Positions 1-61,490 of a stretch of DNA of 61,496 nucleotides are shown here, one piece after another. Position 1 is the stretch's first letter. The number at the start of each line of letters is the position of its first letter. The DNA comes from a virus. The stretch lies in UHGV virus genome UHGV-1354897, one strand, 5' to 3'. The notes below the pieces were generated by a model. It ran no database searches. It saw nothing but the letters and a program-made list of their open reading frames with translations, and was not told the origin of the DNA. Position numbers and translations under genes: made by a program.

Positions 1-54
1 CCATAAACTCGTCAAATAATACCAATAGGTACTATATACATTAATAATAAATCC
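1..54. repeat. terminal direct repeat, left copy (identical to 61437..61490)
   Basis: Exact 54-nt identity between window start and end; sequence diverges at position 55. Confidence 0.8.
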
Positions 55-123
55 TTATTTTATATATATTTATAGTTATTATTTACTATTAGTTTAATTA
101 TATTTGTTTTAGTTAGTTGACTG

Positions 124-441
124 AAAGTTTATAAGTTTATAGGGAGCGAGCCAACCGAGATTTCATAAAATGCATAGTATAGTGGTATAGTGGCATTCAC
201 TATGTTTCACTACTACTACTAATTCTTTGTTTGAAAACGGGGTAATAAGGGGAAAACCGTAAACTTATAAACTTTGCTCTGTGTCAAAAATAAAATTAGT
301 GAATAGTGGAATAGTGGTTTATAGTGGCAAACTTTTATAAAGCCAGTAACGGCGCACTATACACATTTTGCCCACTATGTACGCCACTAAGCACTATATT
401 AAAACAATCCTTGCAAATAGCTAATGTCTGTTTTATAGTGG
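124..441. repeat. iteron-like array of (A/T)ATAGTGG octamers in both orientations, bracketed by a 16-bp inverted repeat
   Basis: TATAGTGG at 178..185, 186..193, 320..327, 434..441; AATAGTGG at 302..309 and 310..317; reverse copy CCACTAT at 372..378; inverted repeat AAAGTTTATAAGTTTA (124..139) vs TAAACTTATAAACTTT (260..275). Confidence 0.6.
411..439 (+). promoter_or_regulatory. sigma70-like promoter candidate (TTGCAA, 17-nt spacer, TATAGT)
   Basis: -35 at 411..416 and -10 at 434..439, followed by RBS AGGAGG and ATG at 467. Confidence 0.4.
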
Positions 442-466
442 CTTCACCAGTTGACTAGGAGGATTT

Positions 467-1210
467 ATGAGCGAAGAAACTATCACATCCGCACCATTAA
501 CATCTAAAACTGTGGTTAAAGATCTGTGTTTTGCTGCGTGGGTTGTGCAAGCTTGCTCGCAGTTGCGCGGTGCGCCAACCAAATCACAGGCGCTTGCTAT
601 GGTGGAGGATTACTTCAACGAAGATGTGGAACAGCCTGTTAAAAAAGCTGTAAGACAAAAAGCGGGAAAGCTGGATGCAGAACGGGCGGCTTTCCTTGCA
701 TGGGTTAGCGATAAGCTGGGACATGAACTGGATGCCAAAGAGCTTCGCAGCTATACGGGCAAATTCAATTACCACATGGGCAAGGGTAACGACCCATATG
801 AAGAAGCATTTAAGGTAAAAGAAGATAAGGGTAAGGCGGGGCGCAAGGAAAACGTCGAGCTTAAAGCATGGATAGAGCGCCAAGCCTTGCTCAAAGGGGA
901 TCCTCTGACAGATAAGGAAGCGGATAAATTGACACATCGCTGGTACAGGATGCGCCGGAGCGGCGATGTTCGGGACTGGGATAATCGCGGTCGCTGGCCT
1001 ACGTGTTCCCTGCACCATTACGAAACCGCTACCGCTATCCGTGTCAAGCTTGGCGCTCATTGGGTAGACCTTGCACTATACAGGGATGCTGAACAGGCTA
1101 AAAATATTCTTCCGAACATTGATAATTGGCTTATTAGCTTAAGACAGGGAAGGGAGCCGCAGGACGTTATGTTAGAAGTTAGTAACCATATTATCACAAC
1201 TCCGCAATAA
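467..1210 (+). CDS. hypothetical protein, first gene downstream of the iteron-like array
   Basis: 247-aa ORF with AGGAGG RBS; no motif recognised. Confidence 0.6.
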   Translation: MSEETITSAPLTSKTVVKDLCFAAWVVQACSQLRGAPTKSQALAMVEDYFNEDVEQPVKKAVRQKAGKLDAERAAFLAWVSDKLGHELDAKELRSYTGKFNYHMGKGNDPYEEAFKVKEDKGKAGRKENVELKAWIERQALLKGDPLTDKEADKLTHRWYRMRRSGDVRDWDNRGRWPTCSLHHYETATAIRVKLGAHWVDLALYRDAEQAKNILPNIDNWLISLRQGREPQDVMLEVSNHIITTPQ

Positions 1211-1275
1211 TGCAAAAATAGTTGCAAAGTAAGGCTTTACTGTGTATTGTGTGGACGGTTGTAACGGAGGGTATT

Positions 1276-1479
1276 ATGGATCACGAATCGGAATTTGATT
1301 TGAACTACATAACGGCAGCGGAAATCGAAGACCGTTATGGCATATCTAAGTTTAAGATGTCGCGCATACGTGACAGCATCCCGGGCGCTATCAGAATTGC
1401 TAACCAGTACATCTACAAACGCTCCTTAGCAGTGCCCGTTCTGGAAAAGATGCAAGGCGATAAGCGTCGGAGGTCTTAA
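1276..1479 (+). CDS. small putative DNA-binding protein (possible HTH)
   Basis: GGAGGG RBS before internal ATG at 1276; segment ITAAEIEDRYGISKFKMSRI looks like a helix-turn-helix. Confidence 0.5.
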   Translation: MDHESEFDLNYITAAEIEDRYGISKFKMSRIRDSIPGAIRIANQYIYKRSLAVPVLEKMQGDKRRRS

Positions 1480-1485
1480 TTAAAT

Positions 1486-3828
1486 ATGGAACTGTTTCCC
1501 GCTGAAATTAAAGCTTTCCCACAATGGGCGGTCGCCGATGCGGATAAAAAGCCTCTTGTATGGGACAACGATATTGGACGTTTGATGGCGGCGGACGTTA
1601 CCGATCCGGATATGCTTATGACGTTTGAAGCTGCCAAAGGTTGCGCCGCGCATTTCAACAAACCTTATATTGGCTTTGTGCTTACTGCACAAGACCCGTT
1701 CACCTGCATCGATCTGGATGTGAAGAACGCGACCAATGAACCTGATCCCAAGAAGCACACGACGCCGGAACAGTTGCGCCGCTTCGAACAGATCATGACT
1801 GCGTTCGATACTTACACCGAAGTAAGTCGCTCAGGTTTGGGTGTCCACCTGTGGTTAAGAGGTAACATCGGTAAAGGTCGCCGACGTGATGGTGTCGAGG
1901 TTTATAGTCAGGAGCGTTTTATTATCTGCACGGGCAATCCTGTTTATAACAAACCAGTTGCAGAACGTGATCATTATCTTACTATGCTTGTGAATGAAAT
2001 TGATCTTCAGCGCAAGACATATGAAATTGAACTGGTAGAAAAAGATCCGGTAGAAGACGATGCGACTATTCACCAGCGAGCACTTGAAGCGGACAACGGG
2101 GATAAGTATGCACGCCTATTCAATGGCGAATGGGTTGAAATGGGATTCCCTTCCCAGTCTGAAGCAGACCTTGCCCTTATTTCTATGTATGCATTCTACA
2201 CAGAAAGTAATGAGCAATGCCGTCGTCTGTTCCGTTACAGTGCACTGGGCAAACGTGAGAAGGCTAATAAGAACAATGTTCATATTGACCGTTGTTTGCG
2301 CATGTGCCGCGGTCGTATGGAGCGTGAGCGCATTGCCCAGGAAAACGTAGCGGCGCTGGCGCGGGATTACGCTGCTCGTATGCAAGCCGCACACAGTGCA
2401 ATGCAGCAGGTAACGGAAATGCCTGTGATTGTCGAAACAACACAGGGGCAGACAGTAGTTGCGGAAAGTACATCCATTGATGCAACAGCTATTGACTGGC
2501 CACCGGGACTCGCTGGGGAGCTTGCGAAGTACATCTACAAAGCATCCGTCCGACCAGTAAAAGAAATCTCTATTGTGACTGCGCTCGGCTTTATGGCTGG
2601 GGTATGCGGGAAAGTATGGCAGATTCCGCAATCCGGTCTTAATGGTTATTTTGTCTTAATTGCTCGTTCTGGTGTTGGTAAAGAGACGTTGAACAGTGGG
2701 CTGTCTAATATAGTTAGCCAGATTCAGGACCAGTTTCCGCAGATTCATAGCTTTGTATCTTTTGACAGATGCGCTTCTGGATCTGCACTGCGTAAATCTT
2801 TTGCAGACAAACAATCTTTTATCAACTTGAACGGTGAGTTTGGTAAGATTATCAAAGCAATGGCAACGGCTCCAGCAGGATCGCCGATGCAAAGTTTCAA
2901 GAATGACCTTACCGATGTTTATCAAAAGTCCGGTCAGATGTCTATCGTTGGTGGTATGTCTTATTCTGATAAGGCTAATAATACTGAAGCTCAACAAGGT
3001 GTGGCATATAGCATCATGGGCGAAACGACACCGGATACGTTCTTTGAAGCATTAACCCGTGAAATGATGGAGGACGGATTCTTATCCCGTTTCCATGTTG
3101 TACGCTATGAAGGTGATCGACCACCTTTAAACAAAAATCAGCAGACTACAATGGATCAGCATTTGAAGGACATGGTGTGCCATCTTGTTAACCACACTTT
3201 AGTAACAATGGCAAAGCATCAGAGTATTGAAGTACAGTTTAGCCCGGATGCGGAAACATTATGCGATCAGTTTAACGATGAATGTGATCGCAATATTAAC
3301 GCAACCAAAGACGAAGCGATCCGTCAGCCGTGGAACCGTGCTCACCTGAAGGTCTTGCGACTTTCTGCCTTGTTAGCTGTGGGTGAGAACTGGATCAATC
3401 CGGTGGTACAAACCTATCATGTGCAATGGGCTTTGGACTTCGTGCGTCATGGGCAGGATATTATTATGAAGGAATGGCATAGCGGAGGCATTGGGACTAA
3501 TGATGAAGCTCGTATCCGTACTATGTGTCAGGTCTGTGTGAATTATCTAACTAAAGACTGGGTGAAAGTTAAACGTGTAGATTTGCGCAAAGAAGGTATT
3601 ATCACGCGGGGTGATATTACTACGCGTCTTGCAAGTAAGTCCGCGTTTAAAAACTATCATCACGGATTATCCGCTGCAATCGAGTCTACAATCAAGGAGA
3701 TGGTTGCTATGGGTGCACTTGTTCCGGTAACACGGGAGGAGACTATTAAACTGGGATTTACTGGGGCAGCTTGGCGCATTACGCAAGATGTTGAAGGAAT
3801 TATGGCAAACTTAGGTGAAGAGGAATAA
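1486..3828 (+). CDS. DNA primase-helicase (AEP prim-pol N-terminal domain plus P-loop NTPase)
   Basis: AEP motifs CIDLDVKN and SGLGVHLWL; Walker A-like ARSGVGKET; 780 aa. Confidence 0.75.
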   Translation: MELFPAEIKAFPQWAVADADKKPLVWDNDIGRLMAADVTDPDMLMTFEAAKGCAAHFNKPYIGFVLTAQDPFTCIDLDVKNATNEPDPKKHTTPEQLRRFEQIMTAFDTYTEVSRSGLGVHLWLRGNIGKGRRRDGVEVYSQERFIICTGNPVYNKPVAERDHYLTMLVNEIDLQRKTYEIELVEKDPVEDDATIHQRALEADNGDKYARLFNGEWVEMGFPSQSEADLALISMYAFYTESNEQCRRLFRYSALGKREKANKNNVHIDRCLRMCRGRMERERIAQENVAALARDYAARMQAAHSAMQQVTEMPVIVETTQGQTVVAESTSIDATAIDWPPGLAGELAKYIYKASVRPVKEISIVTALGFMAGVCGKVWQIPQSGLNGYFVLIARSGVGKETLNSGLSNIVSQIQDQFPQIHSFVSFDRCASGSALRKSFADKQSFINLNGEFGKIIKAMATAPAGSPMQSFKNDLTDVYQKSGQMSIVGGMSYSDKANNTEAQQGVAYSIMGETTPDTFFEALTREMMEDGFLSRFHVVRYEGDRPPLNKNQQTTMDQHLKDMVCHLVNHTLVTMAKHQSIEVQFSPDAETLCDQFNDECDRNINATKDEAIRQPWNRAHLKVLRLSALLAVGENWINPVVQTYHVQWALDFVRHGQDIIMKEWHSGGIGTNDEARIRTMCQVCVNYLTKDWVKVKRVDLRKEGIITRGDITTRLASKSAFKNYHHGLSAAIESTIKEMVAMGALVPVTREETIKLGFTGAAWRITQDVEGIMANLGEEE

Positions 3829-8067: not shown

Positions 8068-8072
8068 TAAAC

Positions 8073-8100
8073 TAAAGGGGTCTTTAGACCCCTTTTTAAC
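8073..8100 (+). terminator. intrinsic terminator
   Basis: Hairpin AAAGGGGTC-TTTA-GACCCCTTT followed by T run. Confidence 0.8.
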
Positions 8101-8110
8101 AGGAGTTATT

Positions 8111-8734
8111 ATGCGAGTAACAATTATTTCTGATGCAAGTTTTTGTCCAAATACAAAAGCCGCAGGCTATGGCGGATGGGTAGTTTGCAACCGCGGAAGT
8201 AATGCTAATGGCGGGCCATTACGCGGTGCTCCGGATAACAATGCAGCTGAAACAATGGCGATCTGCAATGTCATTTGGGAAGGATTGAAAGCTAATTTAA
8301 TTCAATCGGGTGATCATTTAATTGTGCAAACAGATTGTTCAACAGCTATTAAAGTGTATAAAGAGGCAAGCTGGAAAAGCGAACAGGAAGGTACAGCTTT
8401 CAAATGGTTGAACGATCAACTTCGTAAATATAACCTTACTATTGAGTTTCGCCACGTTAAAGGTCATACAAGTAATCAGGACCAGCGTAGCAAAGCTCAA
8501 AGATTTTGTGATGAACGTGCGCGTTCTGCTATGCGATTGGAAAGAAGTAAGATCCGTTTGCAAGAATGCAAAGAGCTTATTTCCGAAGCAAAGAAAAAGG
8601 AAAATAGACCTAAAAAGGGTAGCGGACATTTACGCCGTAATACCCGTATGAAAGAGAAAGCTCAAAAAGCTGCAATACTTTTAGAACGTTGCGGTATACG
8701 CAGCAGTTCCCATCAACATGATTATTATGAATGA
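8111..8734 (+). CDS. ribonuclease H-like protein
   Basis: RNase H-like motifs ISDASF...GYGGWV, AETMAI, QTDCS, HVKGH...DERAR; AGGAG RBS before ATG at 8111. Confidence 0.65.
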   Translation: MRVTIISDASFCPNTKAAGYGGWVVCNRGSNANGGPLRGAPDNNAAETMAICNVIWEGLKANLIQSGDHLIVQTDCSTAIKVYKEASWKSEQEGTAFKWLNDQLRKYNLTIEFRHVKGHTSNQDQRSKAQRFCDERARSAMRLERSKIRLQECKELISEAKKKENRPKKGSGHLRRNTRMKEKAQKAAILLERCGIRSSSHQHDYYE

Positions 8735-49866: not shown

Positions 49867-51426
49867 TTAAATACCGATAGTTTTACCGACACCTGTATAA
49901 ACAGCTTGATCCAGAACCATATAACGTACTTCATCGCCCATATGGTCTTCACATTCCGTATCAACGTCGTCCTGATCTACTTCATCACGAGGAAGACTTG
50001 GAACAAGTTCAAAAAAATAATTGCAATTATCGAAAACATACATTGCTGGATTTTCACGTGGTCCCGGCAAAGGTTTACCGTTTGCATCTTCCCGCAACGC
50101 GGCTTTAAGAAACTCACGCATTTTCTGCCATCCGCGTTTACGCGACCCAGCAGATTTATCACTTCTCTTCCAATGGATGCCGTTATACAGCTTGCCGTTG
50201 AGACGGATTTTCTTCGCCATTGTTGCAGCGGTGGAGTTATTGTTCTCCAGATCCCAAATAGAATTATCCGCAGGTCCAGGAACTACACGGTCGTGTATAC
50301 CCCAGGCCAATTCCCGCTCCAGTATACCGCTTGCAATCTCTGAGTCCAGCAAATGTAGGCCTTCGTTTGTTTTACCGTTAGTGCCGTACCATTCGTTAAT
50401 ACGGAACAAGTCACCGCGAACAGTAGAGAATGTAGTACCATCTTCACGTACAACATCCGAACCGTCACTAATAGCCCACCAGCCAACGGAGAATGGTTTT
50501 GAAGAACCCCAGTCGAAAGAACGTGTAATCTTCCAGCTTGATGGGATTGGGAATGGGCGTATTTTATGAACAGTGCTACGCCACAGATCATCGAACATAC
50601 CGCCGGAGGTGATATCCCAGCTACCGCCTAACCATGCAGCTCGTTTGTTCGGGTCTGTGATGGACATAAGCTCTGCAATATATTTCGGGCTCAGGTTTTT
50701 GTTCTCGCGGTAAGATCCGAAGATATGACATTGCGTCGTAACCACATCTTCCTCTTTCTGCGTCCGCGGGTTAAACACTCGCGTAGTTTTCCTGAGTATC
50801 TTACCCATCGGTGCAGCGTCAATGAAGCGTTTCTTAACCCAGTTATGTCCCGCGCCAAACGGGTTACTGGTAGCAAACACTTCCAGAGGAATGTCTGGTA
50901 AATATGTAACAGTACCGTCCGGATTGATAATCGGATTATCTTCTGGTAGGAATGATGAACGGTTACAGGACATCATTGCTTCAAACAAACGCCCGTCCGG
51001 ATACTTTGTTAATTCGTTCCATCCGATAAACGGGTATTCGTGACCATGATAAGACCAATAATCCTTTTCTTTGCAAGCAACACGGAACAGCAATTCTTCC
51101 CCAGTGGGCCAAACCCATTTATAATCAGACTTGGAACTAAGGAATTTAGCACCATCTTTAAATTCAGGGAACCAACGCTGTGATTTGGTTACAAGGTCAT
51201 CAAGGTTTTTATATTCACGGTCGAATATAATGCCTTTCCAGAATTTACCGTACCCTACGCCAACATTCTTACGGAAACGCATAAGCTGGCAGTCTGTTTT
51301 TCCAGGACCGCGAGTTCCGTGGTATAAGATGATATCGGCAGGGCAGGATAAAGCGAGCGTCTGTGAACCTGGATGTGGCTTCCAGACTACTCGCGGCATG
51401 TTATCAGGTTGTCGGTTTAGCTCCAT
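49867..51426 (-). CDS. terL: terminase large subunit
   Basis: 519-aa ORF with P-loop-like GTRGPGKTD near N-terminus; follows the small-subunit gene. Confidence 0.75.
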   Translation of the reverse strand: MELNRQPDNMPRVVWKPHPGSQTLALSCPADIILYHGTRGPGKTDCQLMRFRKNVGVGYGKFWKGIIFDREYKNLDDLVTKSQRWFPEFKDGAKFLSSKSDYKWVWPTGEELLFRVACKEKDYWSYHGHEYPFIGWNELTKYPDGRLFEAMMSCNRSSFLPEDNPIINPDGTVTYLPDIPLEVFATSNPFGAGHNWVKKRFIDAAPMGKILRKTTRVFNPRTQKEEDVVTTQCHIFGSYRENKNLSPKYIAELMSITDPNKRAAWLGGSWDITSGGMFDDLWRSTVHKIRPFPIPSSWKITRSFDWGSSKPFSVGWWAISDGSDVVREDGTTFSTVRGDLFRINEWYGTNGKTNEGLHLLDSEIASGILERELAWGIHDRVVPGPADNSIWDLENNNSTAATMAKKIRLNGKLYNGIHWKRSDKSAGSRKRGWQKMREFLKAALREDANGKPLPGPRENPAMYVFDNCNYFFELVPSLPRDEVDQDDVDTECEDHMGDEVRYMVLDQAVYTGVGKTIGI

Positions 51427-51961
51427 CTTCAGTCTCTTTAACTAGTCGTTGTTGAGACTCGGATGCAGTTTTTTCCCATTCGTCAATATTTGCTACAGCA
51501 GGGACTATCATTACGCCGCCTCTGTTAGTAACATCAATTTTAGCCTTCTTGGGAGCATCCAAATCATAAATTTGTGCAAGCTTGCCCAATGCGGCTACTC
51601 TAGCAGCTTGAGAAGATCCCGGTCCTGTATAATGAGCTTCACGTTTTAATGCTTCAATGATATGCTGACGCTCTAGGTCTGCTTCAATGTTAGCTTGCTC
51701 AGAAGTACGTTGAACACGGGATCTTTCAATCTCCTTGAGCTTCCATCGAACGTAACAGTCCGTGGCAAAGCGTTGGCCAAGCTCCTGTGCAAACATAGCA
51801 TTGAACCCGCATCTCATGCAAGCGTTAGTCCAATTGTAGTCGAACATATACTCAGCAACAACTTTGTCACGTATTGCCATCTCGTCAGCGGACAAGCTAT
51901 TTGCATACTGGATATAGTTCGTCCAGTCACGATCATATTGCTCTTGACTTGCCCCGTTCAT
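51404..51961 (-). CDS. terS: terminase small subunit
   Basis: 185-aa ORF immediately upstream of and overlapping terL. Confidence 0.55.
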   Translation of the reverse strand: MNGASQEQYDRDWTNYIQYANSLSADEMAIRDKVVAEYMFDYNWTNACMRCGFNAMFAQELGQRFATDCYVRWKLKEIERSRVQRTSEQANIEADLERQHIIEALKREAHYTGPGSSQAARVAALGKLAQIYDLDAPKKAKIDVTNRGGVMIVPAVANIDEWEKTASESQQRLVKETEDGAKPTT

Positions 51962-51981
51962 GGAAGCTCCCCTTCTTATTG

Positions 51982-52287
51982 CTATTTAGGCTGAATATAA
52001 TTGCTTGATCCTACAAAATCAAGCGAAACATTTTCAGCTTCATAGCGTATGATTTCCTTAACCCTTAGCTTACATTCAGTCAGAGCAGTTTCTGTATCCT
52101 GTAAACGTCGGATAATATCTCTTGTGTAAACCAAAGGAATTTTCTCAACTTCCCGACATTCCACCAGTAGATGTGCGGGTAGTCTTACCTTCACTATCTG
52201 TGGAGCTGGAGGAGGTTGAGTTTGCGTCGAGCAACCTGCGCAAATCATCAGGAATACGCTCGTTAAGATAAGCTTTGACGTCAGCAT
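51982..52287 (-). CDS. putative outer-membrane spanin lipoprotein (o-spanin), overlapping the i-spanin gene
   Basis: From internal Met: MLTSKLILTSVFLMICAGCS with lipobox-like Cys, then Pro-rich PPPAPQ; different frame from the i-spanin 3' end. Confidence 0.45.
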   Translation of the reverse strand: MLTSKLILTSVFLMICAGCSTQTQPPPAPQIVKVRLPAHLLVECREVEKIPLVYTRDIIRRLQDTETALTECKLRVKEIIRYEAENVSLDFVGSSNYIQPK

Positions 52288-57507: not shown

Positions 57508-57845
57508 TCACGAACAGTTTCTAACATAGATTTATAATCGTCATCCCAATCATAATTCTCAACATCCTTTTGAAGTTTGGCGATCATTTCTTCAAGGCTG
57601 TTAGCTGGTAAGTAGCTTTCACCAAATGCAGCAAGACGTTTCTGATAATCGGGGCTTTGTTCATCCACCCAGCCAAATTCAGCTTCAAATGAATCACAAC
57701 CAGAGCACGATCCATAAGAACCTTCACAAACCCCCAATACACCATCTTTTCTTATCAGGGCAAGCCATTCACCCTGATAACAACCAAACTCAACAAAATC
57801 TAATACTTCGCATCCAGCAGCTTCTAATGCTAATTGGTAAGACAT
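57489..57845 (-). CDS. hypothetical acidic protein
   Basis: 118-aa ORF; Cys cluster CEGSYGSCSGC. Confidence 0.55.
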   Translation of the reverse strand: MSYQLALEAAGCEVLDFVEFGCYQGEWLALIRKDGVLGVCEGSYGSCSGCDSFEAEFGWVDEQSPDYQKRLAAFGESYLPANSLEEMIAKLQKDVENYDWDDDYKSMLETVREWQKNI

Positions 57846-58087
57846 TCTTCTTGCTCCTCTACATATTTAGTGACACATTTTTGAAAATTAAGAACGATAT
57901 TTTTCTCTTTTACGGAGTGAAATTTAACACGTTCCGGGCAGATAATCCAGCCTTTAAAACGTTGAGTAGCGTCATTCCATGCAGCACGACCATAATAGCC
58001 GCGATATGGACCTAATCGCATTGTATTTACCTCTGTAACCACATTGTTGGAGGAGTTTGTCGTGGTGCTTGCGCTGGGGTCGCACAT
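57830..58087 (-). CDS. hypothetical protein
   Basis: 85-aa ORF with AGGAGG RBS. Confidence 0.55.
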   Translation of the reverse strand: MCDPSASTTTNSSNNVVTEVNTMRLGPYRGYYGRAAWNDATQRFKGWIICPERVKFHSVKEKNIVLNFQKCVTKYVEEQEECLTN

Positions 58088-58455
58088 AAATACCTCCTTG
58101 ATGCTCTAAAAACTGGTGAGAATTGATAGAAATTGGTTGCATCCGCTTAAAGATGGTAGCTATGGGTAGCTACAAGACGGATTATACGTTGACGACTCAG
58201 AATTTACTACCAAAATCCATATATTTAGAAAGGATGAGTGCAATATATTCAAAAAGAAGGTAGGTGGGGTCATGGATGTAGGTGGATAGGCTATGTGACA
58301 GGTGAGATTTAGACAAGGACTTACTATCAGGATGGACAGGGCACGCCCCGGCGATCCAAGTACCTGGAAAAGGATGGGTCGGGTCGCGCGGCTGGGCCTG
58401 CGTGGGTCGGTGTGCGCTGTGCGAGCTGTGCGCGACGCTGTGCGCCTGTTTCGCC

Positions 58456-58494
58456 CGAGCTAATGCATTACCATTACCTTTGTGCATTAGCTCG
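58456..58494. promoter_or_regulatory. perfect 12-bp inverted repeat (CGAGCTAATGCA / TGCATTAGCTCG) with 15-nt loop, in a GC-rich repeat-laden noncoding region
   Basis: Direct reading; neighbourhood also has GCTGTGCG repeats, GTAGGTGG repeats and palindrome GTAGCTATGGGTAGCTAC near 58158..58175. Confidence 0.5.
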
Positions 58495-58514
58495 CTAGCG
58501 TGGCGCTGTGTGCG

Positions 58515-58673
58515 TTATAGCGCGGTTCCCCATTTCCGTTCGTGGCGCTCTGCATACCGCTGTTCCATTACTTCGTTGTATTTGCGATCCCATTTAGCAT
58601 CACATACTTCGGTTACAATTAGTGCCACCAGTGGACCAACTACCGCAACGACCATCATGATTAAAATTAACAT
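58515..58673 (-). CDS. putative small membrane protein (52 aa)
   Basis: ACGGAGG RBS before ATG at 58673; hydrophobic N-terminus MLILIMMVVAVVGPLVALIV. Confidence 0.4.
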   Translation of the reverse strand: MLILIMMVVAVVGPLVALIVTEVCDAKWDRKYNEVMEQRYAERHERKWGTAL

Positions 58674-59024: not shown

Positions 59025-59247
59025 TTTATTTTCCTCCACCTTTCGGCTTTATCTTTCCTTTGACTATATAGTACGCCATGACTTGATCTATGTCTAGGCC
59101 AAACGTGGCATTTTAGCGTAGCGTTGCTGCAAAGCTGTAGATGCAAAACAATTCTAAAATAGCACTTTTGGCCTATTCAATATCACGATGCAAGGCTATT
59201 ATTACTTCAACAAAGCAATACTGCTTAACCACATTAAGGGTTACATC

Positions 59248-59400
59248 ATGGAATTCAAATTAGTGGAACTCGAGTCCGGTAAAATAGCTGGTTATGTATC
59301 TGCCCCAAGCTGGGAGGAGGCTGAAATCTTCTTAATGGGTCAGTTCGATATGTACATTAGCGACATCTACAAGGAATACGATTTAGTCCAAATTAAGTGA
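59248..59400 (+). CDS. small acidic protein (50 aa), first gene of the rightward block
   Basis: AAGGGT RBS before ATG at 59248; Glu/Asp-rich. Confidence 0.5.
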   Translation: MEFKLVELESGKIAGYVSAPSWEEAEIFLMGQFDMYISDIYKEYDLVQIK

Positions 59401-59441
59401 TTTATATCTTGCCTAGTTGATCCAACTGGGCAATAATAAGT
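59398..59441 (+). repeat. 44-nt intergenic element, copy 1 (TGATTTATATCTTGCCTA...TAATAATAAGT)
   Basis: Starts on the TGA stop codon; contains an imperfect hairpin; near-identical flanks shared with 59971..60014. Confidence 0.6.
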
Positions 59442-59469
59442 CAACTTAAACAAAACGAGGATATACATC

Positions 59470-59973
59470 ATGGCTACCAAACTAATTGGCAAGGGTGCTT
59501 TCACTAAAGCATACCTTCTGGATTCAGGTCGCGTACTTCTAAAATCTTGCGACCCTATTAAAGAATGCATGGCGTGGGGATGGTTTCCTGAGCATGAATT
59601 ATTTCCCCATGTCACAATGATAGACACAGGAGTCTACGAAATGGATTATTATCCTCGTGTTCGCAGCTTAAAGAGCGCTTTACAACCTGAGCAATACGCA
59701 CTCTATAAACAACTCCGCAGCTTGTGCGCAGGGTTAGAGATGCCGCGTAATACATATGACAACTATAGCTATCTATATGATGTTTTCAGTAATAGCGACC
59801 TGGCCCAAGACATTAAAGATGTGCTCCTGGAAGCTTTGGATGCTTGCGCTAATATTGGTCCGCAAATGTGGTTTGAAATCAGTCCTCGCAATGTGGCGGT
59901 AAAAAACGGAAAACTTGTTTTGCTGGATGTTTTCTTTTGTACACAAGCTCTAAAGAATATCAGAAATAGTTGA
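59470..59973 (+). CDS. minimal protein-kinase-like protein (T7 gp0.7-like)
   Basis: Gly-rich loop LIGKGAFTKAY, candidate Lys in RVLLKS, catalytic-loop-like ISPRNVAVKNGKLVLLDVFF; only 167 aa. Confidence 0.45.
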   Translation: MATKLIGKGAFTKAYLLDSGRVLLKSCDPIKECMAWGWFPEHELFPHVTMIDTGVYEMDYYPRVRSLKSALQPEQYALYKQLRSLCAGLEMPRNTYDNYSYLYDVFSNSDLAQDIKDVLLEALDACANIGPQMWFEISPRNVAVKNGKLVLLDVFFCTQALKNIRNS

Positions 59974-60014
59974 TTTATATCTTGCCTACTTCAACTTAGT
60001 AGGTAATAATAAGT
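59971..60014 (+). repeat. 44-nt intergenic element, copy 2
   Basis: TGATTTATATCTTGCCTACTTCAACTTAGTAGGTAATAATAAGT; same flanks as copy 1, different central hairpin. Confidence 0.6.
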
Positions 60015-60059
60015 ACAACTTAGCAAGACTACTAAACAATCCAACAGAAGGAATATACC

Positions 60060-61436: not shown

Positions 61437-61490
61437 CCATAAACTCGTCAAATAATACCAATAGGTACTATATACATTAATAATAAATCC
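61437..61490. repeat. terminal direct repeat, right copy (identical to 1..54)
   Basis: Exact 54-nt match to the window start. Confidence 0.8.

What the first reader, a model, noticed from the sequence alone, without database searches (positions are those of the whole stretch)
58090..58560. Repeat-rich, GC-rich noncoding region with a perfect 12-bp inverted repeat
About 430 bp without convincing ORFs contains the palindrome GTAGCTATGGGTAGCTAC, tandem GTAGGTGG repeats, three GCTGTGCG repeats and a perfect 12-bp inverted repeat (58456..58494). The composition is far more GC-rich than the A/T-rich intergenic regions elsewhere. Candidates are a packaging site, a second origin, or a regulatory hub for leftward transcription.
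Basis: seen in the sequence. Interest (0 to 1): 0.5.

Follow-up and report, generated by a model that had tools for sequence, protein, structure and literature searches.

The report
Phage genome end in noncoding junction
This 430-base gene-free stretch of a Seuratvirus phage genome most likely holds the exact spot (58338|58337) where the packaging enzyme cuts the DNA to make one end of the virus chromosome, followed by the start signals for the next block of genes.

Summary
All the motifs are at the stated coordinates. 58088-58514 is noncoding and is the longest gene-free stretch of the genome. It contains the genome's most GC-rich 120 nt and its only 12-bp perfect inverted repeat.

The window is a Seuratvirus (Queuovirinae) genome assembled as a collapsed circle. 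The region occurs once per genome, only in this genus.

The decisive evidence is comparative. Two independent Seuratvirus records carry exact terminal duplications: ECP2304 (3,695 bp) and Hafnia phage yong3. Their inner boundary falls at the same homologous nucleotide, window 58338|58337. That is 1 nt before the invariant block TCCATCCTGATAGTA and 22 nt after a conserved GTACT.

In the sister genus, the HdSG1 record ends exactly at the 9g nucleotide (28,243) that was published as the physical DNA end.

I therefore read the region as the junction holding one physical genome terminus, the inner boundary of a direct terminal repeat of about 3.3-3.7 kb.
- The GC-rich repeats and hairpin are the last ~180 bp of the repeat.
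- Beyond the cut lies a C-rich, G-poor, structure-free tract, a plausible Rho-dependent terminator.
- After that come a promoter/operator and a structured 5' leader for the next gene.

The function of the hairpin and of the GCACAGC repeats is unresolved. No read data were available for this phage.

The parts
58337..58338 (.). Inferred physical genome terminus: the inner boundary of the direct terminal repeat (DTR) and the terminase cut. The DTR side has the higher coordinates (58338 upward, through the window end and start, to roughly position 190).
   Evidence: ECP2304 record: 1-3695 equals 59896-63590, with the boundary ...GGGCCCTT|ATCCATCCTGATAGTAAG. yong3 record: it ends ...GGGTTGGGAT, and the internal copy continues |GTCCATCCTGATAGTATCC. 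Both map to the same column of the alignment of 35 unique sequences (34 homologous copies and one chance match).
58322..58336 (-). Nearly invariant block TCCATCCTGATAGTA, immediately outside the cut (+2 to +16). It is the candidate terminase recognition or cleavage determinant.
   Evidence: Only TCY/ATY variants occur among the 34 homologous copies, which include STP-SP5 and yong3 at 70-78% overall identity. It is unique in the genome.
58359..58364 (-). Conserved GGTACT (GTACT is invariant), 22 nt inside the cut. It is followed by a variable 22-nt spacer that exists in two alleles.
   Evidence: GGGTAG lies 20-21 nt before the left DTR boundary of both ECP2304 and yong3.
58456..58494 (-). 12-bp perfect inverted repeat with a 15-nt loop, inside the DTR about 120-155 bp from its end. 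Function unresolved.
   Evidence: z about -3.7 on both strands. It has no U tract, unlike the genome's real intrinsic terminators. STP-SP5 has a different 8-bp stem around a similar loop. Of five stem substitution events, three keep G-U pairing in minus-strand RNA and two break a pair.
58416..58444 (-). Three GCACAGC (GCTGTGCG on the + strand) direct repeats spaced 12 and 9 bp apart, within the genome's GC maximum (58340-58459). Together with the rest of 58356-58460 they form 'module D'.
   Evidence: Module D is replaced by an unrelated ~240-nt module in ECP2304, SA126VB, GottfriedDienst, Dru_SM1 and Skure (aligned here) and, judging from the same split BLAST matches, in SLUR25/63 and SHIN8. 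TerS is 99.5-100% identical in both types.
58252..58512 (-). Conserved single-copy noncoding core, found only in Seuratvirus. It starts at, or within about 10 nt after, the stop codon of most of the several unrelated upstream genes; Seurat gp69 runs on into the hairpin.
   Evidence: The core is more conserved than third codon positions of the neighbouring gene: WildeMaa 95 vs 63%, yong3 76 vs 56%, STP-SP5 78 vs 68%.
58221..58337 (-). C-rich, G-poor, structure-free, untranslated tract on the leftward sense strand. It is a plausible Rho loading (rut) site just beyond the DTR boundary. It includes the two CCACCTAC (GTAGGTGG) copies.
   Evidence: 58307-58228 has C 30 and G 5 per 80 nt, the strongest C>G window of the leftward arm. 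58320-58221 has an MFE of -0.2 kcal/mol per 100 nt, the least structured sense-strand window of the genome (mean -20.8, sd 6). The composition is kept in yong3 (C33, G3), ECP2304 and WildeMaa.
58181..58209 (-). Leftward promoter candidate TAGTAA-17-TATAAT. It overlaps a near-palindrome CTGAG TC GTCA, which is a perfect CTGAC TT GTCAG in STP-SP5.
   Evidence: The homologous TAGAAA-17-TATACT is flagged in STP-SP5.
58189..58216 (+). Rightward (antisense) promoter-like site TTGACG-16-CAAAAT, positionally conserved in three lineages. Function unknown.
   Evidence: yong3: GTGACG-16-TAAAAT. The count of such sites is not above chance, and the module is absent from phages that carry the HNH endonuclease.
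58088..58180 (-). Structured 5' leader of the 85-aa gene. It includes the palindrome GTAGCTA-N4-TAGCTAC (58156-58173) and the ribosome-binding site AGGAGG.
   Evidence: The minus-strand fold of 58214-58115 has z -3.0, against -0.7 for the plus strand. The hairpin is compensated in STP-SP5 (GTACC...GGTAC).
57830..58087 (-). First gene of the unique leftward arm (85 aa, phrog_24875, unknown function).
   Evidence: It shows a coding substitution pattern: identity at codon position 2 is 97.4%, position 1 92.7%, position 3 91.6%.
58515..58673 (-). Last gene inside the DTR on the leftward strand (52-aa membrane-type protein, phrog_7482).

Best explanation
The region is the noncoding junction where one physical end of the virion chromosome is made.

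Shown:
- The window is a Seuratvirus genome assembled as a collapsed circle.
- In two independent relatives deposited as linear genomes with exact terminal duplications, the inner boundary of the duplication falls at the same homologous nucleotide, window 58338|58337.
- That position is 1 nt before the invariant TCCATCCTGATAGTA and 22 nt after a conserved GTACT.

Inferred:
- Terminase, or an associated nuclease, recognises these flanking blocks in replicated concatemers and cuts there.
- This makes the right end of a direct terminal repeat of about 3.3-3.7 kb. The repeat carries the divergent immediate-early promoters and the early genes on both sides.
- What follows the cut is the beginning of the unique, long leftward arm. 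It starts with a C-rich, G-poor, unstructured, untranslated tract, which probably loads Rho and stops immediate-early transcripts from running into the structural genes.
- Next come a promoter with an operator-like palindrome and a structured 5' leader for the 85-aa gene.
For: - Identity of the phage and distribution of the element.
- ECP2304 has an exact 3,695-bp terminal duplication whose boundary lies inside the core.
- yong3 has a terminal duplication, 1,546 nt verified at 100% identity, with its boundary at the same alignment column although the region is only about 70-76% identical. A random assembly break would hit this 427-nt region about 0.7% of the time, and the same nucleotide twice essentially never.
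- Validation in the sister genus: Kulikov et al. 2014 (PMC4276943, section 3.5) mapped the 9g physical end at nt 28,243 from read starts, with reads crossing it, which they took as a direct terminal repeat. The HdSG1 record ends at exactly that nucleotide and has a second internal copy.
- The most conserved block of the whole region abuts the cut.
- The region is noncoding.
- Rho-type features.
- Promoter and leader.
Against: - No read data exist for this phage. The window itself shows only a 60-nt assembly overlap at an unrelated position, so the terminus is inferred by homology.
- I do not know how the ECP2304 and yong3 records were finished, and yong3 is flagged 'circular'.
- The Seurat genome paper inferred pac-type headful packaging from TerL similarity (PMC4342423).
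- The left boundary of the repeat is not conserved between ECP2304 and yong3 and cannot be placed in the window.
- The 9g terminus region shows no sequence similarity above chance to this region.
- No data show which sequences terminase binds. The hairpin and the GCACAGC repeats remain unexplained, and they are dispensable in phages that have an identical TerS.
- Rho termination and both promoters are predictions only.
Confidence: 0.7

Rival explanations
1. The site is a pac site for headful packaging rather than an exact DTR boundary. Terminase would make only the first cut of each packaging series at 58338|58337, later cuts would be imprecise, and the terminal duplications in the records would reflect how the assemblies were finished.
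For: The Seurat authors inferred headful packaging from TerL. TerL matches Pfam Terminase_6N, the T4-type family. In 9g, 85 reads crossed the end and coverage was stepped, a pattern a pac phage would also give.
Against: Exact terminal duplications of 3.4-3.7 kb exist in three records from different labs: ECP2304, yong3 and HdSG1. Their inner boundary is precise to the nucleotide. The repeat lengths (verified 3,695; inferred about 3,424 and about 3,362 nt) are similar across the two genera.
Confidence: 0.13
2. The region is purely a transcription-unit boundary with no DNA end. A Rho-dependent terminator (hairpin plus C-rich rut) closes the immediate-early leftward operon and a promoter starts the next one.
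For: It has the strongest C>G bias of the arm and the least structured sense RNA of the genome, and it is untranslated. No intrinsic terminator is found in any lineage. A promoter and leader follow.
Against: This does not explain why two records end exactly at 58338|58337, or why the adjacent 15-mer is invariant. As an additional function it remains plausible (about 0.4).
Confidence: 0.1
3. The region is a replication origin. The GCACAGC and GACCC repeats would act as iterons for the phage primase-helicase, next to an AT-rich unwinding region, possibly primed by the rightward G-rich transcript from the + strand promoter (an R-loop).
For: Direct repeats are spaced 12 and 9 bp apart. The adjacent segment is 36% GC. 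A + strand promoter-like site points into the most G-skewed DNA of the genome. The cumulative GC skew reaches its minimum near 59-60 kb. The phage encodes a 780-aa primase-helicase-type protein.
Against: The repeat module is replaced by unrelated DNA in about a quarter of relatives. The + promoter module is missing in phages that carry the HNH endonuclease. The skew minimum is confounded by divergent transcription. Nothing ties the initiator to these repeats.
Confidence: 0.04
4. The region encodes a small noncoding RNA, or a real small protein such as Seurat gp70 / CAjan gp75.
For: Several GenBank records annotate ORFs here. The sequence is more conserved than neighbouring synonymous sites.
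Against: ORF length and frame are not conserved, and there is no codon periodicity and no protein-family match. There is no Rfam match even at E<=10. The whole-region fold is no better than shuffles, and the RNAalifold covariation term is unfavourable.
Confidence: 0.03

Closest known systems
Physical end and terminal repeat of Nonagvirus phage 9g (Kulikov et al. 2014, PMC4276943)
   Same: Same subfamily (Queuovirinae) and the same genome layout. The DNA end lies in the large noncoding region at the head of the structural-gene arm, several kb upstream of terS (4.6 kb in 9g, about 6.4 kb here). The repeat carries the divergent early promoters. HdSG1 has a repeat of about 3.4 kb.
   Different: There is no sequence similarity above chance. 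In 9g the end lies 132 nt before the first gene of the arm, inside the divergent intergenic region. In Seuratvirus, three or four small genes lie between the early promoters and the end.
Long direct terminal repeats of T5-like phages (established knowledge; Davison 2015 review, recalled from memory)
   Same: A kilobase-scale exact DTR carries the earliest-expressed small genes. The inner edge of the repeat is rich in repeats and palindromes.
   Different: The T5 repeat is about 10 kb and is associated with two-step DNA transfer. Nothing here tests two-step transfer, and the terminases are not shown to be related.
T7/T3 concatemer junction (pac sites, hairpin intermediate, RNA polymerase pause site; recalled from memory)
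   Same: Defined cuts at both edges of a terminal repeat. A palindrome or hairpin and transcription stop signals sit at the junction, and the repeat is presumed to be duplicated during packaging.
   Different: The T7 repeat is 160 bp and depends on phage RNA polymerase. Seuratviruses encode no RNA polymerase, and no sequence is related.
Lambda tR1/nutR-type Rho-dependent terminator downstream of early genes (established knowledge)
   Same: An untranslated, C-rich, G-poor, unstructured RNA lies right after short early genes, with a hairpin in front of it.
   Different: There is no boxA/boxB-like site: the hairpin has a 12-bp stem and a 15-nt loop. No N-like protein was identified, and termination is untested.

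Membership tests
Direct-terminal-repeat genome terminus (terminase cut site) | Exact duplication of a terminal segment in complete linear genome records | tested here: met
   In relatives: ECP2304 1-3695 = 59896-63590 at 100%; yong3 1879-3424 = 61278-62823 at 100%. The window itself is a collapsed assembly.
Direct-terminal-repeat genome terminus (terminase cut site) | Boundary at the same nucleotide in independent genomes, next to conserved sequence | tested here: met
   Both boundaries lie 1 nt before TCCATCCTGATAGTA, at window 58338|58337.
Direct-terminal-repeat genome terminus (terminase cut site) | Pile-up of read starts at the boundary and about twofold coverage over the repeat | not testable with these tools
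   No reads are available. A read-start pile-up is published for the sister phage 9g, and HdSG1 ends at the same nucleotide.
Direct-terminal-repeat genome terminus (terminase cut site) | A second defined boundary (the left end of the repeat) | tested here: inconclusive
   It is defined in the ECP2304 record and inferred in yong3, but the two sequences differ and the site cannot be located in the window.
cos site (cohesive ends) | Short single-stranded overhang, no long terminal duplication, usually next to terS | tested here: not met
   Related records carry duplications of 3.4-3.7 kb. The site is about 6.4 kb from terS.
pac site of headful packagers | One defined initiation cut with permuted, imprecise other ends | not testable with these tools
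   This was inferred for Seurat from TerL only. The exact duplications argue against it but cannot exclude it.
Rho-dependent terminator | An untranslated stretch of 80 nt or more on the transcribed strand | tested here: met
   427 nt without a conserved ORF.
Rho-dependent terminator | C-rich, G-poor and free of secondary structure | tested here: met
   C 30 and G 5 per 80 nt; MFE -0.2 kcal/mol per 100 nt, the genome extreme; composition conserved in other lineages.
Rho-dependent terminator | Rho- or bicyclomycin-dependent RNA 3' ends | not testable with these tools
   No Seuratvirus transcriptome was found in the literature searched.
Intrinsic (Rho-independent) terminator | GC-rich stem with a short loop followed by a U tract | tested here: not met
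   The hairpin has a 15-nt loop and no U tract. The genome's true terminators at 3828, 25911, 34137 and 45066 all have these features.
Protein-coding gene (Seurat gp70 / CAjan gp75 annotations) | Conserved frame and length, with an excess of third-position substitutions | tested here: not met
   ORFs of 53-209 aa, frameshifting indels, variable sites 16:13:15 by codon position; no PHROG or Pfam match.
Known RNA families (Rfam 15) and tRNA/tmRNA | Match to a covariance model | tested here: not met
   No hit at gathering scores or at E<=10; no tRNA.
Iteron-type replication origin | An array of direct repeats retained in all relatives, next to an AT-rich region | tested here: inconclusive
   The repeats and the AT-rich flank are present. 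The repeat module is replaced in about a quarter of relatives.

The most novel reading that the evidence does not exclude
The junction may be an integrated device in which DNA-end formation and transcription control are physically coupled. In this reading the terminase cut site sits between the end of the immediate-early operon (hairpin plus exchangeable terminal module) and a Rho loading tract plus promoter. Stalling or termination of RNA polymerase at the repeat boundary would then help mark or expose the cut site, as at the T7 concatemer junction but with host RNA polymerase and Rho. The two interchangeable terminal modules (GC-rich repeats, or the 240-nt module with its own promoter) would be alternative solutions for the same step.
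Probability: 0.15. Interest if true: 0.65.

Novelty: new member of a known kind. Interest (0 to 1): 0.45.

Why it matters
Seuratviruses are widely used E. coli phages: CAjan, Seurat and several BASEL collection members. They are deposited opened arbitrarily at terS, were described as headful packagers, and carry contradictory 'hypothetical protein' calls across this region.

Placing a defined terminus and a direct terminal repeat of about 3.3-3.7 kb here has four consequences.
- It corrects those annotations.
- It gives the true chromosome structure: virion DNA of about 65 kb, with the immediate-early genes present at both ends.
- It names a precise 15-nt candidate recognition block for the terminase.
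- It tells anyone rebooting or engineering these genomes where the ends must be.

It also explains why this noncoding block stays constant while the genes on both sides are shuffled.

Tried and rejected
- **Coding gene.** Rejected: the frame and length are not conserved, there is no codon periodicity and no family match.
- **tRNA, tmRNA or a known RNA family.** None found.
- **Globally structured RNA.** The fold z-scores are -0.12 and -0.92 and the covariation term is +4.
- **Intrinsic terminator.** The hairpin lacks a U tract.
- **Host- or plasmid-derived DNA.** No match in 5,426 E. coli genomes or in PLSDB.
- **Second copy in the genome.** None.
- **More divergent homologues.** Scans of IMG/VR and of metagenomes returned only close Seuratvirus relatives plus chance hits.
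- **TerS co-variation with the GC-rich versus alternative module.** TerS is 99.5-100% identical in both types, so that module is not the TerS specificity determinant.
- **Sequence homology with the 9g terminus region.** Shared 7-8-mers are at chance level.
- **Early assumption that cos/pac lies next to terS because records start there.** Withdrawn: records are opened at terS by convention.
- **SLUR75 record starting about 60 nt outside the region.** Judged an arbitrary assembly break.
- **Literature.** No Seuratvirus transcriptome or terminus mapping was found.
- **Left repeat boundary in the window.** It could not be located.

Full report
**1. What the window is.**
The window is a complete genome of a Seuratvirus (subfamily Queuovirinae). 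The query 57800-58900 matches 35 phage records, including Seurat, CAjan, CSP1 and slur01. Bases 1-54 repeat at 61437-61490, so the window is a circularly collapsed assembly with a unit length of 61,436 bp.

Genes run rightward from about 59188, across the window junction, to about 27 kb; these are the replication genes, including a 780-aa primase-helicase-type protein. Genes run leftward from about 59040 down to about 27.1 kb: small early genes, then terS at 51404-51961, terL, and the structural genes. Divergent early promoter-like sites lie at 59040-59187.

The finding sits 0.55-1.0 kb into the leftward arm, after three small genes of 54, 47 and 52 aa.

**2. The observation.**
- The 12-bp inverted repeat is the only perfect one of that length in the genome, with 0.1 expected by chance.
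- GCTGTGCG occurring three times within 30 bp never arose in 100 random genomes.
- 58340-58459 is the GC maximum of the genome at 70.8%, but 58088-58260 is only 36% GC.
- At 427 nt this would be the longest gene-free stretch. The next longest intergenic gaps are 271 nt (8068-8338, from a crude greedy ORF call that may undercall genes there) and 183 nt.

**3. It is not a gene.**
The only sizeable ORF shared by relatives starts at ATG 58487 on the minus strand. Its length is 53, 58, 58, 58, 61, 71, 71, 79, 92, 96 or 126 aa in 11 relatives aligned here, and 172-209 aa as annotated in two more records. Single-base indels shift the frame. The 44 variable sites fall 16:13:15 over codon positions, so no frame on either strand shows coding periodicity.

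The neighbouring 85-aa gene shows the normal coding pattern: mean identity to the window is 97.4% at codon position 2, 92.7% at position 1 and 91.6% at position 3.

No overlapping ORF matches PHROGs or Pfam. GenBank annotators disagree, calling minus-strand ORFs, plus-strand ORFs, or nothing.

**4. Distribution and anatomy.**
The region is present once per genome. It was found only in Seuratvirus: 36 GenBank records, 3 IMG/VR contigs and 8 metagenome contigs, with nothing in E. coli genomes or plasmids.

Read on the transcribed (minus) strand, a conserved core runs from TAACGCACACAGCG (58512) to CCCCACCTACC (about 58252). It begins at, or within about 10 nt after, the stop codon of most of the several unrelated upstream genes; Seurat gp69 runs on into the hairpin. 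It is followed by at least three different downstream modules:
- the promoter plus 85-aa gene, as in the window;
- an HNH homing-endonuclease cassette;
- a 450-nt insert in SD04.

The middle of the core (58356-58460, carrying the GCACAGC repeats) is replaced by an unrelated ~240-nt module in about a quarter of the phages.

The core is more conserved than third codon positions of the adjacent gene: WildeMaa 95 vs 63%, yong3 76 vs 56%, STP-SP5 78 vs 68%.

**5. The turning point: genome ends.**
I had at first discounted a packaging role, because most records start at terS. That is only a convention.

For the sister genus, Kulikov et al. mapped the physical end of 9g DNA at nt 28,243 from a pile-up of read starts. 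Reads also crossed that point, which the authors took to indicate a direct terminal repeat. In NC_024146 that nucleotide lies in the 603-bp noncoding region at the head of the structural arm, 132 nt before its first gene.

The HdSG1 record (63,595 bp) ends exactly at that nucleotide and has a second, internal copy of the region. Terminal duplications in deposited records of this subfamily therefore mark real ends.

Two Seuratvirus records are likewise longer than the unit genome.
- **ECP2304 (63,590 bp):** 1-3695 is identical to 59896-63590. The boundary reads ...GGGTACTAATAATCACCCGAGGGCCCTT | ATCCATCCTGATAGTAAG.
- **Hafnia phage yong3 (62,823 bp):** 1879-3424 is identical to 61278-62823. The boundary reads ...CTAGGTACTTAGGACGCTAAGGGTTGGGAT | GTCCATCCTGATAGTATCC.

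These phages come from different hosts and different laboratories and are only about 70-76% identical here. Even so, both boundaries fall in the same alignment column, window 58338|58337.

In an alignment of 35 unique sequences anchored on this point (34 homologous copies and one chance match, L024), the 15 nt just outside the cut (TCYATYCTGATAGTA) are the most conserved block of the region. GTACT is invariant at -27 to -23. The 22 nt between them vary and exist as two alleles.

At the other (left) boundary of the repeat in ECP2304 and yong3 the sequences differ. Both, however, have GGGTAG 20-21 nt before the cut and GATAGAA within 30 nt after it. This hints at a shared recognition logic, but two genomes are too few to establish it.

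**6. Interpretation.**
The finding region is the junction that contains one physical end of the chromosome, the inner boundary of a direct terminal repeat of about 3.3-3.7 kb. In window coordinates the repeat runs from 58338 upward, across the window junction, to roughly position 190.

The repeat therefore holds the GC-rich part of the finding, the three leftward immediate-early genes, the divergent early promoters, and the first rightward early genes.

The inference that terminase recognises GTACT...N22...|.TCYATYCTGATAGTA is mine and is untested. TerS is 99.5-100% identical in phages with either terminal module. The GCACAGC repeats and the hairpin are therefore not what TerS specificity depends on, and their role is unresolved.

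The hairpin is locally very stable (z -3.7). It has a different stem around a similar loop in STP-SP5. Of five stem substitution events, three keep G-U pairing in minus-strand RNA and two break a pair, which is weak evidence for an RNA-level role.

**7. What lies beyond the cut.**
On the leftward sense strand, 58337-58221 is untranslated. It has the strongest C-over-G excess of the whole arm (C 30, G 5 per 80 nt). It is also the least structured 100 nt of any sense-strand RNA in the genome (-0.2 kcal/mol against a mean of -20.8 and sd of 6). The composition is preserved in divergent lineages.

No intrinsic terminator exists here in any lineage, whereas the genome's real terminators are canonical. 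These are the defining sequence features of a Rho loading site. A terminator here would stop immediate-early transcripts from entering the structural arm. I rate this at about 0.4, as a function additional to the terminus.

Next comes TAGTAA-17-TATAAT (58209-58181), overlapping a near-palindrome. Its STP-SP5 homologue is flagged by the promoter scan.

A rightward promoter-like site (58189-58216) is positionally conserved in three lineages. It is absent from HNH-carrying phages, and such sites are not more frequent here than chance.

**8. Rivals.**
- Headful pac initiation at the same site cannot be excluded without reads (0.13).
- A pure transcription boundary does not explain the shared record ends (0.10).
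- An origin (0.04) has only the repeats and the AT-rich flank in its favour, and the repeat module is dispensable.
- An RNA or protein product (0.03) fails the tests in sections 3 and 4 and.

**9. Novelty and verdict.**
Defined ends with long terminal repeats are a known kind of phage chromosome structure, and the 9g end was published. For Seuratvirus, the only published statement I found predicts headful packaging, and I found no description of this junction.

I class the finding as a new member of a known kind, of moderate interest. It is useful for annotation, for engineering these phages, and as a defined terminase site for study. The main limitation is that the terminus is placed in this window by homology, not from its own reads.

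Noticed in passing
window 1-54 and 61437-61490: The two ends of the window are identical. This is an assembly overlap of a circularised contig, so the unit genome is 61,436 bp. The overlap lies inside the inferred terminal repeat but is unrelated to its boundaries.
   Followed up: partly
window 59391-59456 and 59964-60029 (+): A 66-nt intergenic element is repeated between rightward early genes at 73% identity. An 11-bp hairpin (TTGCCTAGTTG...CAACTGGGCAA) sits between promoter-like hexamers TTGCCT and AATAAT, which resembles the promoter-stem-loop elements of T4-type phages.
   Followed up: partly
L012 (ECP2304) 1248-1510; also L002, L011, L015, L016: The ~240-nt module that replaces the GCACAGC repeats has its own strong promoter-like site (TAGCCA-18-TATAAT). 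It is directly followed by a 6-bp hairpin (ACGAAT...ATTCGT), the same '-10 then 5' hairpin' layout as at window 58186.
   Followed up: partly
L003, L013, L014, L015, L016 (phiG7, WildeMaa, SA80RD, Dru_SM1, Skure): An HNH homing-endonuclease gene is inserted just downstream of the core, right after CCCCACCTACC, where it replaces the promoter module. Gene conversion linked to homing could contribute to the uniformity of the core.
   Followed up: no
window 59138-59200: This 63-nt stretch of the divergent early control region is 86-100% identical (mostly >=95%) in all E. coli relatives checked, even where the flanking genes differ. It contains TTGAAT-18-TAGAAT on the minus strand.
   Followed up: partly
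L013 (WildeMaa), minus strand, equivalent to window ~58290: A run of 13 C replaces about 30 nt of the C-rich tract. This lineage therefore pushes the C-rich, G-poor character further rather than losing it.
   Followed up: no
window 150-460 (minus strand): At least six copies of CCACTAT(A) (ATAGTGG on the + strand) lie in the noncoding stretch before the 247-aa gene, close to where the left boundary of the terminal repeat should be. The 9g terminus region likewise has five or six TATAGTA and three ATACCAGGTAAC repeats (L080 13950-14230).
   Followed up: no
window 51962-52144: A 183-nt AT-rich (37% GC) gap lies just upstream of terS. It is the place where a pac or cos site would conventionally be sought, and I did not examine it.
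   Followed up: no
window 58032-58057 and 33145-33170: A 26-nt direct repeat at 88% identity (TCTGTAACCACATTGTTGGAGGAGTT) links the start of the 85-aa gene with the start of the lone + strand gene inside the leftward arm.
   Followed up: no
GenBank records KM236243, NC_028776, MZ501091, PP627281, PP627278 and others: The region is annotated as 'hypothetical protein' with mutually incompatible ORFs of 43-209 aa on either strand. These calls are probably spurious.
   Followed up: yes
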